From: Escherichia coli | Lineage (GTDB): Bacteria; Pseudomonadota; Gammaproteobacteria; Enterobacterales; Enterobacteriaceae | NCBI RefSeq assembly: GCF_048403405.1 | Contig: NZ_CP183129.1 | Direction: 5' to 3' (one strand) | Length of the DNA stretch: 64,000 nt | Part shown: in pieces, positions 29,221 to 51,436 of the stretch | How positions within the stretch are numbered: position 1 is the first letter of the stretch | Layout: each line of letters opens with the position of its first letter | Notes under the pieces: generated by a model | What the model was told of the DNA's origin: nothing | The model's database searches: none | The model's input: the letters and a program-made list of their open reading frames with translations, nothing else | Program-made: the position numbers and the translations under genes

Positions 29221-30453
29221 ATGGCAAAGGTATCGCTGGAGAAAGACAAGATTAAGTTTCTGCTGGTAGAAGGCGTGCACCAAAAGGCGCTTGAAAGCCT
29301 TCGTGCAGCTGGTTACACCAACATCGAATTTCACAAAGGCGCGCTGGATGATGAACAATTAAAAGAATCCATCCGCGATGCCCACTTCATCGGCCTGCGA
29401 TCCCGTACCCATCTGACTGAAGACGTGATCAACGCCGCAGAAAAACTGGTCGCTATTGGCTGTTTCTGTATCGGAACAAACCAGGTTGATCTGGATGCGG
29501 CGGCAAAACGCGGGATCCCGGTATTTAACGCACCGTTCTCAAATACGCGCTCTGTTGCGGAGCTGGTGATTGGCGAACTGCTGCTGCTATTGCGCGGCGT
29601 GCCGGAAGCCAATGCTAAAGCGCACCGTGGCGTGTGGAACAAACTGGCGGCGGGTTCTTTTGAAGCGCGCGGCAAAAAGCTGGGTATCATCGGCTACGGT
29701 CATATTGGTACGCAATTGGGCATTCTGGCTGAATCGCTGGGAATGTATGTTTACTTTTATGATATTGAAAACAAACTGCCGCTGGGCAACGCCACTCAGG
29801 TACAGCATCTTTCTGACCTGCTGAATATGAGCGATGTGGTGAGTCTGCATGTACCAGAGAATCCGTCCACCAAAAATATGATGGGTGCGAAAGAGATTTC
29901 GCTAATGAAGCCCGGCTCGCTGCTGATTAATGCTTCGCGCGGTACTGTGGTGGATATTCCGGCGCTGTGTGACGCGCTGGCGAGCAAACATCTGGCGGGG
30001 GCGGCAATCGACGTATTCCCGACGGAACCGGCAACCAATAGCGATCCATTTACCTCTCCGCTGTGTGAATTCGACAACGTCCTTCTGACGCCACACATTG
30101 GCGGTTCGACTCAGGAAGCGCAGGAGAATATCGGCCTGGAAGTTGCGGGTAAATTGATCAAGTATTCTGACAATGGCTCAACGCTCTCTGCGGTGAACTT
30201 CCCGGAAGTCTCGCTGCCACTGCACGGTGGGCGTCGTCTGATGCACATCCACGAAAACCGTCCGGGCGTGTTAACTGCGCTGAACAAAATCTTCGCCGAG
30301 CAGGGCGTCAACATCGCCGCGCAATATCTGCAAACTTCCGCCCAGATGGGTTATGTAGTTATTGATATTGAAGCCGACGAAGACGTTGCCGAAAAAGCTC
30401 TGCAGGCAATGAAAGCTATTCCGGGTACCATTCGCGCCCGTCTGCTGTACTAA
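29221..30453 (+). CDS. serA: D-3-phosphoglycerate dehydrogenase, 410 aa
   Basis: 410 aa MAKVSLEKDKIKFLLVEGVHQKALESLRAAGYTNIEFHKGALDDEQ... Confidence 0.95.
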   Translation: MAKVSLEKDKIKFLLVEGVHQKALESLRAAGYTNIEFHKGALDDEQLKESIRDAHFIGLRSRTHLTEDVINAAEKLVAIGCFCIGTNQVDLDAAAKRGIPVFNAPFSNTRSVAELVIGELLLLLRGVPEANAKAHRGVWNKLAAGSFEARGKKLGIIGYGHIGTQLGILAESLGMYVYFYDIENKLPLGNATQVQHLSDLLNMSDVVSLHVPENPSTKNMMGAKEISLMKPGSLLINASRGTVVDIPALCDALASKHLAGAAIDVFPTEPATNSDPFTSPLCEFDNVLLTPHIGGSTQEAQENIGLEVAGKLIKYSDNGSTLSAVNFPEVSLPLHGGRRLMHIHENRPGVLTALNKIFAEQGVNIAAQYLQTSAQMGYVVIDIEADEDVAEKALQAMKAIPGTIRARLLY

Positions 30454-30473
30454 TTCCCCTTCTCTGAAAATCA

Positions 30474-30506
30474 ACGGGCAGGTCACTGACTTGCCCGTTT
30501 TTTTTA
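30474..30506 (+). terminator. serA rho-independent terminator
   Basis: ACGGGCA-ggtcactgact-TGCCCGT hairpin followed by TTTTTTTT. Confidence 0.7.
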
Positions 30507-30639
30507 TCCCTTCTCCACACCGTTGCCGCGTTGCGCATTCTACTTTGCGAGTCTGCTCCAGAAAATAAATCAAAGTCAGATCAATGCGTTGTGTTTATTT
30601 AATGGGGATTTACGATGGCAGGACAGCATGGGGCTGTAA

Positions 30640-30785
30640 CGGTAAAGCCCTCACCGAAGCGAGGGCTTAAAGGAGAAGGGTTATGATGCGACTTGTCATC
30701 ATACTGATTGTACTGTTACTCATAAGTTTGCCAGCTTATTAACAGTCAGTCACAGGGGAGGAGTAATCCTCCCTTACCCTTACTC
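30640..30785 (-). ncRNA. sibC: SibC-like antisense sRNA (antitoxin to ibsC); boundaries approximate
   Basis: Minus-strand promoter-like TTGACA (plus 30813-30818), 17-bp spacer, TAATTT (plus 30789-30794); hairpin GCCCTC-accgaagc-GAGGGC at 30647-30666 as candidate 3' end; fully antisense to ibsC. Confidence 0.45.
30683..30742 (+). CDS. ibsC: type I toxin IbsC-like hydrophobic peptide (19 aa)
   Basis: ATG ATG CGA CTT ... TAT TAA encodes MMRLVIILIVLLLISLPAY; SD AGGAGAAGGG upstream; lies in the serA-ygfA spacer where I recall the ibsC/sibC locus. Confidence 0.6.
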   Translation: MMRLVIILIVLLLISLPAY

Positions 30786-30842
30786 ACTAAATTAGGTTAA
30801 AGAATCAACGATGTCAATCAGGGCGATGCAGGTGTGTCGCCC

Positions 30843-31391
30843 TCACCACTCCCAGACTTTCGACGGTGTAACCACCGCAGGAAGAGGGATATCCCACTCT
30901 TCAACGGGGAGTTTTTCCACCAACTGACAATCATGCGCATAACCCACCGGTTGCATTTTATAGTGCTGCCAGTTTTGTAAGGTCCGATCATAAAAACCAC
31001 CGCCCATTCCCAGGCGCTGGCCGTACTCATCAAAGGCGACCAGCGGTGTGATCAACACGTCTAATCGGGAAAGGGGGAGCACGTCACGCACATCCAGTTT
31101 TGGCTCATGGATCTTCAACCTGTTCATCACCAGTTCGCTTTGCGGATGGTAATTCAGGAACAGCAAATTACCGGCACTAAAGGGATGCAAAACTGGAAGA
31201 TATACGCGCTTACCGGCGCGCCAGAGTTGTTCTATGAGTGGCTGGGTGTCGAGTTCGCCATCAAAAGAGAGGAATACAGCAACCGTATGTGCCATCATCA
31301 CTGGGGGATAAGTCATCATCCGGGTAGCAGCTTGTTGACCCATTTTCAGCTGTTGTTCCGGCGTTAACGCACGACGACGTTGCCGAATCAT
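30843..31391 (-). CDS. ygfA: 5-formyltetrahydrofolate cyclo-ligase family protein, 182 aa
   Basis: Internal ATG gives MIRQRRRALTPEQQLKMGQQAATRMMTYPPV...; start chosen downstream of the 6S RNA 3' end; ORF-track 248 aa overlaps ssrS and is over-extended. Confidence 0.85.
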   Translation of the reverse strand: MIRQRRRALTPEQQLKMGQQAATRMMTYPPVMMAHTVAVFLSFDGELDTQPLIEQLWRAGKRVYLPVLHPFSAGNLLFLNYHPQSELVMNRLKIHEPKLDVRDVLPLSRLDVLITPLVAFDEYGQRLGMGGGFYDRTLQNWQHYKMQPVGYAHDCQLVEKLPVEEWDIPLPAVVTPSKVWEW

Positions 31392-31465
31392 TTTGCGGAT
31401 TTCTTGTCGAGATAATGTCAGTGGGAGTTCTGGTAGTTGCGTCATGGCTGGTGCCAGATAAGAAG

Positions 31466-31649
31466 GGAATCTCCGAGATGCCGCCGCAGGCTGTAACCCT
31501 TGAACCCTTGGTTCAAGGTGAATGTGTCGTCGCAGTTTTAAGGCTTCTCGGACGGACCGAGCATGCTCACCAACCGCGGAGCGCCACATTCTTGTGGTAT
31601 GAAATATCGGCTCAGGGGACTGGCCCGCTTGCGAACATCTCAGAGAAAT
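31466..31649 (-). ncRNA. ssrS: 6S RNA
   Basis: Reverse complement of 31466-31649 reads AUUUCUCUGAGAUGUUCGCAAGCGGGCCAGUCCCCUGAGCCGAUAUUUCAUACCACAAGAAUGUGGCGCUCCGCGGUUGGUGAGCAUGCUCGG...GGAGAUUCC, matching E. coli 6S RNA from memory; sits between zapA and ygfA. Confidence 0.92.
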
Positions 31650-50328: not shown

Positions 50329-51427
50329 ATGTTTGAAATTAATCCGGTAAATAATCGCATTCAGGACCTCACGGAACGCTCCGACGTTCTTAGGGGGTAT
50401 CTTTGACTATGACGCCAAGAAAGAGCGTCTGGAAGAAGTAAACGCCGAGCTGGAACAGCCGGATGTCTGGAACGAACCCGAACGCGCACAGGCGCTGGGT
50501 AAAGAGCGTTCCTCCCTTGAAGCCGTTGTCGATACCCTCGACCAAATGAAACAGGGGCTGGAAGATGTTTCTGGTCTGCTGGAACTGGCTGTAGAAGCTG
50601 ACGACGAAGAAACCTTTAACGAAGCCGTTGCTGAACTCGACGCTCTGGAAGAAAAACTGGCGCAGCTTGAGTTCCGCCGTATGTTCTCTGGCGAATATGA
50701 CAGCGCCGACTGCTACCTCGATATTCAGGCGGGCTCTGGCGGTACGGAAGCACAGGACTGGGCGAGCATGCTTGAGCGTATGTATCTGCGCTGGGCAGAA
50801 TCGCGTGGTTTCAAAACTGAAATCATCGAAGAGTCGGAAGGTGAAGTGGCGGGTATTAAATCCGTGACGATCAAAATCTCCGGCGATTACGCTTACGGCT
50901 GGCTGCGTACAGAAACTGGCGTTCACCGCCTGGTGCGTAAGAGCCCGTTTGACTCCGGCGGTCGTCGCCACACGTCGTTCAGCTCTGCGTTTGTTTACCC
51001 GGAAGTTGATGATGATATTGATATCGAAATCAACCCGGCGGATCTGCGCATTGACGTTTATCGCGCGTCCGGCGCGGGCGGTCAGCACGTTAACCGTACC
51101 GAATCTGCGGTGCGTATTACTCACATCCCGACCGGGATCGTGACCCAGTGCCAGAACGACCGTTCCCAGCACAAGAACAAAGACCAGGCCATGAAGCAGA
51201 TGAAAGCGAAGCTTTATGAACTGGAGATGCAGAAGAAAAATGCCGAGAAACAGGCGATGGAAGATAATAAATCCGACATCGGCTGGGGCAGCCAGATTCG
51301 TTCTTATGTCCTTGATGACTCCCGCATTAAAGATCTGCGCACCGGGGTAGAAACCCGCAACACGCAGGCCGTGCTGGACGGCAGCCTGGATCAATTTATC
51401 GAAGCAAGTTTGAAAGCAGGGTTATGA
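50329..51427 (+). CDS. prfB: peptide chain release factor 2 with programmed +1 ribosomal frameshift (365 aa)
   Basis: Frame-0 ORF from ATG 50329 ([25 protein letters not shown]) hits in-frame TGA at 50404-50406 within AGGGGGTATCTTTGAC; the +1 frame from 50405 continues as [22 protein letters not shown]... to the end of the ORF-track ORF (50546..51427); GGQ motif present. Confidence 0.92.
50390..50410 (+). promoter_or_regulatory. prfB autoregulatory frameshift site (internal SD + CUU UGA C)
   Basis: AGGGGG (SD-like) 3 nt upstream of CTT TGA C at 50401-50407. Confidence 0.9.
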
Positions 51428-51436
51428 GGAACCAAC

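What the first reader, a model, noticed from the sequence alone, without database searches (positions are those of the whole stretch)
30640..30790. IbsC/SibC-type type I toxin-antitoxin locus in the serA-ygfA spacer
A 19-codon ORF with its own SD encodes the extremely hydrophobic peptide MMRLVIILIVLLLISLPAY. A convincing sigma70 promoter (TTGACA-17-TAATTT) on the opposite strand would drive a fully antisense RNA. This is the architecture of Ibs/Sib modules and is invisible in the >=60-aa ORF track.
Basis: partly seen in the sequence, partly recalled or inferred. Interest (0 to 1): 0.35.

Follow-up and report, generated by a model that had tools for sequence, protein, structure and literature searches.

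The report
Known ibsC/sibC toxin–antitoxin locus

Summary
The observation and the interpretation are both confirmed. Window 30683-30742 (+) encodes MMRLVIILIVLLLISLPAY behind an AAGGAG Shine-Dalgarno. On the opposite strand, TTGACA-17-TAATTT (30817-30789) precedes a 141-nt RNA (30781→30641). That RNA matches Rfam SIB_RNA at 138 bits (E 2e-28), and the peptide matches Pfam Ibs_toxin (39.7 bits against a cutoff of 27). The serA–fau spacer is 98% identical to E. coli K-12, where ibsC (b4665) and sibC (b4446) are annotated at the same positions. The locus is present in 5425 of 5426 complete E. coli genomes. RefSeq already annotates this exact peptide (WP_100635201.1, "Ibs family toxin").

The only departure from K-12 is allelic. 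Codons 16-17 read Leu-Pro instead of Phe-Ser. These nucleotides are SibC +49 to +52, in the loop of target-recognition domain 1, where Han et al. (2010) swapped bases to retarget SibC. Across E. coli this spot carries three main alleles: FP in about 51% of genomes, FS (K-12) in about 40%, and LP in about 6%, mostly the O157:H7/O55:H7 lineage. Because the antisense RNA is cis-encoded, it stays perfectly complementary in every allele. Expression and toxicity were not testable here. Verdict: already known, low interest.

The parts
30589..30616 (+). Putative ibsC promoter: -35 TTGTGT (30589-30594), 16-nt spacer, -10 TACGAT (30611-30616)
   Evidence: The hexamer assignment is my inference from the position of the mapped K-12 ibsC +1 (primers MscIIC+1 and ERI-T7-ibsC in PMC2943612). 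The sequence is identical to K-12 across both hexamers. The generic scan did not flag it.
30623..30781 (+). ibsC mRNA, about 159 nt. The +1 is equivalent to the K-12 +1 and is A here but G in K-12. The 3' end is approximate.
   Evidence: The 5' end comes from Han et al. primer extension, transferred by alignment. Those authors themselves estimated the 3' end from transcript length. The predicted fold is unusually stable (z -6.2) and leaves the SD unpaired.
30670..30675 (+). Shine-Dalgarno AAGGAG of ibsC
   Evidence: Read directly. It lies 7 nt upstream of the ATG, inside the TRD2 target.
30683..30742 (+). ibsC coding sequence: 19 aa, MMRLVIILIVLLLISLPAY, plus stop
   Evidence: Translation. Pfam PF13956 Ibs_toxin 39.7 bits, cutoff 27. 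RefSeq WP_100635201.1 at the same position in identical genomes.
30641..30781 (-). sibC antitoxin RNA, 141 nt, +1 = A at 30781
   Evidence: Rfam RF00113 138.4 bits. Coordinates transferred from K-12 b4446 by alignment. The 5' end agrees with primer AatIIC-F of PMC2943612. Fold z -5.6, same architecture as K-12. Nine pairs show compensatory changes among 8 Sib RNAs.
30789..30817 (-). sibC promoter: -35 TTGACA (30817-30812), 17-nt spacer, -10 TAATTT (30794-30789)
   Evidence: Sequence. Both hexamers are identical to K-12, with one spacer difference at 30798. The Rfam model includes this promoter as positions 1-29.
30714..30736 (-). SibC target-recognition domain 1 (TRD1, +46 to +68; P5 loop). 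The allele-specific bases are +49 to +52 = 30733-30730.
   Evidence: Domain limits from PMC2943612. These bases are unpaired in the predicted hairpin loop. The four bases differ from K-12.
30667..30683 (-). SibC target-recognition domain 2 (TRD2, +99 to +115; J1/7). It is complementary to the ibsC SD and start codon.
   Evidence: Domain limits from PMC2943612. There is one difference from K-12, at +113 (30669).
30645..30668 (-). SibC terminator hairpin (P7): AAGCCCUCGC-UUCG-GUGAGGGCUU, then UUACC
   Evidence: Predicted, with compensatory pairs among paralogs. It was not flagged by the terminator scan because the U tract is short.

Best explanation
The region is the E. coli ortholog of the ibsC/sibC type I toxin-antitoxin pair.

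The plus strand makes a mRNA of about 159 nt (from 30623) that encodes the 19-residue hydrophobic peptide IbsC. The minus strand makes the 141-nt SibC RNA (30781→30641), which is perfectly complementary to the whole ORF and its ribosome-binding site. SibC first contacts the mRNA through two single-stranded elements. One is the P5 loop (TRD1), which pairs inside the ORF. The other is the J1/7 linker (TRD2), which pairs over the SD and AUG. Pairing then spreads and prevents IbsC synthesis. If IbsC is made, it inserts into the inner membrane and depolarises it. A Salmonella homolog has been reported to block the FoF1 ATP synthase.

Shown here: homology, synteny, intact ORF and SD, conserved promoters, the predicted RNA fold, and the allele distribution. 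Inferred from K-12 and Salmonella experiments: transcription, repression and toxicity.

This window carries a minority allele (Leu16-Pro17, about 6% of E. coli genomes). Its changed bases lie in the TRD1 loop. Because the antitoxin is cis-encoded, complementarity is preserved automatically.
For: - **RNA and peptide homology:** Rfam SIB_RNA matches full length at 138.4 bits, E 1.8e-28. Pfam Ibs_toxin scores 39.7 bits against a cutoff of 27.
- **Orthology with K-12:** the serA–fau spacer is 98% identical, with annotated sibC and ibsC at matching positions. The gene order rpiA-serA-[ibsC/sibC]-fau-ssrS-zapA is the same.
- **Conservation and annotation:** the locus is in 5425 of 5426 complete E. 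coli genomes. The ORF is annotated as an Ibs-family toxin in identical genomes.
- **Structure:** the SibC fold has z -5.6 with P1, P2, P5, P6 and P7 as in K-12. Nine pairs have compensatory changes among 8 Sib RNAs.
- **Recognition domains:** TRD1 and TRD2 map onto the ORF and the SD/AUG exactly as described in PMC2943612.
- **Published function:** IbsC depolarises the membrane and SibC represses it (review PMC8309996). SibC transcripts have been detected in K-12 (PMC4447067; PMC12956327). Salmonella IbsA inhibits the FoF1 ATP synthase (bioRxiv 10.1101/2025.05.26.656083).
Against: - There are no expression data for this strain.
- Residue 16 is Leu, whereas it is Phe in K-12 IbsA to IbsE and in this lineage's IbsD and IbsE, so the toxicity of this allele is untested.
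- The NCBIfam scan of the peptide returned nothing.
- Neither promoter passes a generic sigma-70 consensus scan.
- The physiological role of chromosomal Ibs/Sib pairs in E. coli is still not settled in the literature I read.
Confidence: 0.95

Rival explanations
1. The module is a decayed copy. The F16L change has inactivated the toxin, leaving SibC as an orphan antisense RNA with nothing dangerous to repress.
For: Phe16 is invariant in the seven other Ibs peptides compared, and this allele has Leu. A review reports that residues 6-19, including the C-terminal residues, are needed for IbsC toxicity (PMC8309996).
Against: The ORF, SD, both promoters and the SibC fold are all intact. The same peptide is kept with an intact ORF in 345 genomes spanning at least two lineages, with a synonymous difference between them. 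Phe to Leu is a conservative hydrophobic change, and the peptide still scores above Pfam's cutoff. IbsC is reported to tolerate many substitutions.
Confidence: 0.06
2. The main job of SibC at this locus is something other than silencing ibsC, for example a trans-acting regulatory RNA tied to stationary phase, with the small ORF incidental.
For: In K-12, the sibC promoter is bound by sigma-S RNA polymerase (PMC4447067). SibC is NAD-capped in stationary phase under ppGpp/DksA control (PMC12956327). This points to regulation beyond a simple constitutive antitoxin.
Against: No trans target is known in the papers read. The ORF is conserved as an intact 19-codon frame across all alleles seen. Han et al. 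found that a ΔibsC/sibC strain cannot tolerate an ibsC plasmid, so repression of ibsC is a demonstrated function.
Confidence: 0.04
3. The ORF and the opposing promoter are a chance coincidence in an intergenic spacer.
For: The -10 hexamer is weak (3 of 6), and the generic scan did not list either promoter.
Against: Rfam E 1.8e-28, Pfam E 4e-10, conservation in 5425 of 5426 genomes, and annotated K-12 orthologs at the same positions.
Confidence: 0.005

Closest known systems
E. coli K-12 ibsC (b4665) / sibC (b4446, formerly rygC / QUAD1c)
   Same: Same intergenic site (serA–fau). The spacer is 98% identical. The ORF length, the SD, both promoters' hexamers, the 141-nt SibC length and the predicted fold are all the same. 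This is the ortholog.
   Different: Seven of 141 SibC bases differ. Four are contiguous at +49 to +52 in the TRD1 loop and change IbsC residues 16-17 from Phe-Ser to Leu-Pro. One is in TRD2 (+113). The others are at +18 (P2 loop) and +30. The base at the K-12 ibsC +1 position is A instead of G.
ibsD/sibD and ibsE/sibE (between yqiK and hldE) and ibsA/sibA, ibsB/sibB (between yegL and mdtA)
   Same: Same family and architecture. SibD and SibE of the same lineage are 78-80% identical to the window's SibC. The peptides share the pattern MM(K/R)x(V/L)IIxxxLLxxSxxxY.
   Different: They sit at different chromosomal sites. The TRD1 loops are all different (C: UGGC; D: GGCG; E: CGGG in this lineage). 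This fits the cognate-only repression described in PMC2943612.
Salmonella Typhimurium ibsA/sibA
   Same: A 19-aa Ibs-family toxin with a cis-antisense Sib RNA. It gives the only proposed molecular target for an Ibs toxin, the FoF1 ATP synthase (bioRxiv 10.1101/2025.05.26.656083).
   Different: It is in a different species and at a different locus (the one that holds ibsD/ibsE in E. coli MG1655). I did not compare the sequences here. The target has not been shown for IbsC.
Other E. coli type I toxin-antitoxin pairs (shoB/ohsC, tisB/istR-1, ldr/rdl, hok/sok, zorO/orzO)
   Same: A small hydrophobic membrane toxin whose synthesis is blocked by an antisense RNA (PMC8309996).
   Different: In Ibs/Sib the antitoxin overlaps the entire toxin ORF on the opposite strand. 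From my own knowledge, several of the others use divergently encoded RNAs or RNAs that overlap only the 5' UTR. There is no sequence homology between the families.

Membership tests
Sib antitoxin RNA (Rfam RF00113 SIB_RNA) | Sequence and structure match to the family covariance model at or above the gathering score | tested here: met
   138.4 bits against a gathering score of 56, E 1.8e-28, model positions 1-147 of 147, minus strand 30817-30667.
Sib antitoxin RNA (Rfam RF00113 SIB_RNA) | An RNA of about 140 nt with a closing P1 stem, internal hairpins and a terminal terminator hairpin. TRD1 lies in a hairpin loop and TRD2 in the single-stranded J1/7 linker. | tested here: met
   The MFE fold of 30781→30641 reproduces the K-12 architecture (z -5.6). 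The consensus fold of 8 Sib RNAs has 42 pairs, 9 with compensatory changes. These are in silico results only.
Ibs toxin (Pfam PF13956 Ibs_toxin) | An 18-19-aa hydrophobic peptide matching the family HMM above the gathering score | tested here: met
   39.7 bits against a cutoff of 27, E 4.3e-10, profile positions 1-19 of 19. The query carried one artificial leading Val (the in-frame upstream codon) to reach the tool's 20-residue minimum. The NCBIfam scan found nothing.
Ibs/Sib type I toxin-antitoxin module | The toxin ORF lies wholly within the antitoxin RNA gene, on the opposite strand | tested here: met
   The ORF at 30683-30742 (+) lies inside sibC at 30641-30781 (-).
ibsC/sibC ortholog specifically | Located between serA and fau (ygfA), next to ssrS, and closest in sequence to sibC rather than sibA, B, D or E | tested here: met
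   Synteny. Seven of the 141 SibC bases differ from K-12 sibC (about 95% identity). K-12 sibA, B, D and E are visibly more divergent in the six-way alignment, and this lineage's own SibD and SibE are 78-80% identical.
Ibs/Sib type I toxin-antitoxin module | Both transcripts are made in vivo | not testable with these tools
   No RNA data exist for this strain. The promoter hexamers and the SibC +1 base are identical to K-12; the base at the ibsC +1 position is A instead of G. Both K-12 transcripts have been mapped (PMC2943612; PMC4447067).
Ibs/Sib type I toxin-antitoxin module | The peptide is toxic when overproduced, and the cognate Sib RNA represses it | not testable with these tools
   Shown for K-12 IbsC/SibC in the literature. 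The L16P17 allele is untested.

The most novel reading that the evidence does not exclude
The four bases that distinguish this allele (SibC +49 to +52) lie in the TRD1 loop, and three of them (+49 to +51) are the positions Han et al. mutated to retarget SibC to ibsD. Within E. coli this spot carries at least four variants: FS about 40%, FP about 51%, LP about 6%, plus a CCG variant. In a small sample, 11 of 13 polymorphic SibC positions fall in unpaired recognition elements. The most novel reading not excluded is that the recognition loops of this cis-encoded pair are under diversifying selection within the species. That would keep alleles and paralogs mutually orthogonal, with toxin residues 16-17 carried along. 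The window's G→A change at the ibsC +1 position might also alter 5' NAD capping of the toxin mRNA. Neutral drift in unconstrained loop positions remains the simpler explanation.
Probability: 0.15. Interest if true: 0.3.

Novelty: already known. Interest (0 to 1): 0.08.

Why it matters
It matters little as a discovery. ibsC/sibC was described in 2008, has an Rfam and a Pfam family, and this exact peptide is already a RefSeq protein. The value is practical. The result confirms that a sequence-only reader can pick out a 19-codon toxin gene and its antisense RNA, which a 60-aa ORF filter misses. It also shows that the sibC RNA gene is not annotated in the RefSeq records of genomes identical to the window (strains 144 and 4621), although the toxin ORF is. 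The allele census is a small by-product: the K-12 laboratory IbsC sequence (Phe16-Ser17) is not the commonest form in E. coli.

Tried and rejected
- my first translation used 30684-30743 and was one base off. It was corrected to 30683-30742.
- **Generic promoter and terminator scan:** it flagged neither the sibC nor the ibsC promoter, nor the SibC terminator. It found only the serA terminator and one internal promoter-like site. It is therefore uninformative for this locus.
- **NCBIfam scan of the peptide:** no hit, although PGAP names the protein.
- **Gene conversion idea:** I considered that the 4-nt block differing from K-12 was imported from a paralog. I rejected this for two reasons. No K-12 or same-lineage paralog has UGGC at that spot. 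The allelic series also shows the window is one base (C→G at 30730) away from the majority FP allele.
- **Upstream haplotype block:** I considered that the divergent block at 30566-30620 came from a paralog's upstream region. The alignment shows no such similarity.
- **Papers not held:** Fozo et al. 2008 (PMC2597788) and Mok et al. 2010 (PMC3009890) are not in the library. Their content is cited only through Han 2010 and the review PMC8309996.
- **Paralog search:** my first guess for sibD/sibE in strain 4621 landed in a capsule and pathogenicity island. The second guess found them.
- **Searches not run:** I did not use the metagenome, genome-collection or large protein searches, because the answer did not depend on them.

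Full report
**What is in the sequence.**
- Window 30683-30742 (+) is a 19-codon ORF encoding MMRLVIILIVLLLISLPAY. An AAGGAG Shine-Dalgarno lies 7 nt upstream, at 30670-30675.
- On the minus strand, TTGACA (30817-30812), a 17-nt spacer and TAATTT (30794-30789) precede the region.
- The upstream gene is serA (29221-30453 +). The downstream gene is fau/ygfA (30843-31445 -), followed by the 6S RNA gene ssrS (31466-31649 -).
Only the antisense promoter lies slightly outside the stated box.

**Identity.**
- A scan of the whole window against Rfam gave two hits: 6S RNA, and SIB_RNA (RF00113) on the minus strand at 30817-30667. The SIB_RNA hit scores 138.4 bits against a gathering score of 56, E 1.8e-28, over the full model.
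- The peptide matches Pfam Ibs_toxin PF13956 at 39.7 bits against a cutoff of 27. I had to add one artificial leading residue to meet the tool's length minimum. NCBIfam gave nothing.
- The 389-bp serA–fau spacer aligns to E. coli K-12 MG1655 at 98% identity. K-12 annotates sibC (b4446, 141 nt) and ibsC (b4665) at the equivalent positions.
- Transferring the K-12 coordinates gives sibC = window 30781→30641.
- The primers in Han et al. 2010 (PMC2943612) place SibC +1 at the A of AAGGGUAAGGG, which is 30781. They place ibsC +1 at the base equivalent to 30623, giving a mRNA of about 159 nt with a 60-nt leader.

**Source and conservation.**
- The window is E. coli. A 25-kb piece is essentially 100% identical to strain 4621 and relatives such as MS 69-1 and TUM1226.
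- The window is 98.5% identical to strain 144 over all 64 kb. The spacer alone is 100% identical to strain 144.
- The spacer is present in 5425 of 5426 complete E. coli genomes.
- In strains 144 and 4621 the ORF is annotated as WP_100635201.1, "type I toxin-antitoxin system Ibs family toxin". The sibC RNA is not annotated in either record.

**Structure and mechanism.**
- The 141-nt RNA folds much more stably than shuffled controls (-53.8 kcal/mol, z -5.6). Its layout matches K-12 SibC: a closing P1 stem, a P2 hairpin, a P5 hairpin, a P6 hairpin, a single-stranded linker and a terminator hairpin.
- A consensus fold of eight Sib RNAs gives 42 pairs, nine of them with compensatory changes. The eight are the window's SibC, the five K-12 paralogs, and SibD and SibE of strain 4621.
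- Han et al. defined two independent target-recognition domains. TRD1 (+46 to +68, the P5 loop) pairs inside the ORF. TRD2 (+99 to +115, J1/7) pairs over the translation initiation region.
- In window coordinates, TRD1 is 30736-30714 (codons 11-18). TRD2 is 30683-30667, which covers the SD and the first base of the AUG.
- In the predicted ibsC mRNA fold, the SD is unpaired.
- According to the literature, IbsC overproduction depolarises the membrane within minutes and SibC prevents its synthesis (PMC8309996). A ΔibsC/sibC strain cannot be transformed with an ibsC plasmid (PMC2943612).
- K-12 SibC starts with A and is largely NAD-capped in stationary phase under ppGpp/DksA control (PMC12956327). 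Its promoter is bound by sigma-S polymerase (PMC4447067).
- A Salmonella Ibs homolog inhibits the FoF1 ATP synthase (bioRxiv 10.1101/2025.05.26.656083).
- These functional steps are inferred for the window from orthology. They were not shown here.

**What differs from K-12.**
- Seven of the 141 SibC bases differ.
- Four are contiguous at +49 to +52 (30733-30730). K-12 reads GCUG and the window reads UGGC. This changes ibsC codons 16-17 from TTC AGC (Phe-Ser) to TTG CCA (Leu-Pro).
- The bases at +49 to +51 are the ones Han et al. changed (G49CU51 to UGC) to retarget SibC to ibsD.
- One further difference is in TRD2 (+113). The others are at +18 (P2 loop) and +30.
- This looked like a block substitution at first, but representative genomes show an allelic series. 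LF82 and many others have TTC CCA (Phe-Pro). EC13 has TTC CCG. The window and strain 9000 (which groups with the O157:H7/O55:H7 genomes) have TTG CCA. The window is therefore a single C→G away from the commonest allele.

**Allele census.** Allele-specific 30-mer searches across 5426 genomes gave these counts:

| Allele (residues 16-17) | Codons | Genomes | Share |
|---|---|---|---|
| Phe-Pro | TTC CCA | 2790 | 51% |
| Phe-Ser (K-12 type) | TTC AGC | 2165 | 40% |
| Leu-Pro (this window) | TTG CCA | 345 | 6.4% |

- The Leu-Pro genomes listed are mostly O157:H7/O55:H7; about 33 genomes share the window's exact ORF sequence.
- Phe16 is invariant in K-12 IbsA to IbsE and in strain 4621's IbsD and IbsE. 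Leu16 is therefore the unusual residue, while position 17 varies freely.
- The TRD1 loops of the three Sib RNAs found in this lineage are all different, so cognate discrimination should be retained. This is an inference.

**A pattern worth a caveat.** Among eight sibC alleles, 11 of 13 variable positions lie in predicted unpaired elements, which make up 47 of the 141 positions. A hypergeometric P of about 1e-4 assumes independent sites, and that assumption does not hold, because +49 to +52 and +17 to +19 are clusters. The eight sequences were also picked by identity class, not at random. The result is consistent either with relaxed constraint in loops or with selection on recognition specificity. 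I cannot tell these apart here.

**Verdict.** The finding is correct in both observation and interpretation. It is the orthologous ibsC/sibC type I toxin-antitoxin locus, already described, catalogued in Rfam and Pfam, and annotated (toxin only) in RefSeq. It is not novel. The allele detail is a minor by-product.

Noticed in passing
window 31466-31649 (-): The 6S RNA gene ssrS scores 139.8 bits in Rfam. The mechanical ORF list shows a 248-aa ORF (30843-31589 -) that runs through it. The annotated fau gene is only 30843-31445, so the long ORF over-extends into the RNA gene.
   Followed up: partly
window 30734-30707 (-): This was the only promoter-like site the generic scan reported in 30400-30900: CTGGCA-16-TACAAT, inside sibC. 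Its -35 includes the allele-specific bases (K-12 has CGCTGA there). It is probably chance (1 found against 0.7 expected), but it would give a 5'-truncated Sib-like RNA. Two SibC bands are reported in K-12 (PMC4447067).
   Followed up: no
window 30623 (+): The base equivalent to the mapped K-12 ibsC transcription start is A here but G in K-12 and in the six other alleles compared. PMC12956327 shows that a +1A is required for NAD capping of Sib RNAs, so the toxin mRNA of this allele might become NAD-cappable. This is pure speculation.
   Followed up: no
window 30566-30620 (+): This stretch is a sharply divergent block. The window, K-12, LF82, EC13 and B1.H1.39 share one form. Strain 9000, ETEC-2265 and AR62.2 share another that differs at about 13-15 of these 55 positions, including one base of the putative ibsC -35. 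Strain 9000 combines the second form with the window's Leu-Pro allele, which suggests recombination inside the spacer. The block does not resemble paralog upstream regions.
   Followed up: partly
window 30454-30842 versus the whole window: The serA–fau spacer is 100% identical to strain 144, yet the 64-kb window as a whole is only 98.5% identical to that strain, with 962 mismatches. The spacer allele is therefore shared across otherwise diverged backgrounds.
   Followed up: no
NZ_CP033605.1 (E. coli O157:H7 strain TR01), hits H20 and H72: This genome matches only 45% of the spacer, and its best ibsC-like ORF is an 85% match elsewhere in the chromosome. It therefore appears to have lost ibsC/sibC. 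One further genome of the 5426 has no match at all.
   Followed up: no
L001 and L013 (RefSeq records of strains 144 and 4621): These RefSeq records annotate the 19-aa toxin but not the sibC RNA, whereas ssrS next door is annotated. The peptide gets no hit in the NCBIfam HMM library, so its RefSeq name does not appear to come from one of those HMMs.
   Followed up: partly
window about 50330-51430 (+), from L012 annotation: prfB, with its programmed +1 frameshift, is annotated in the homologous stretch of strain 144. I did not examine it in the window itself.
   Followed up: no
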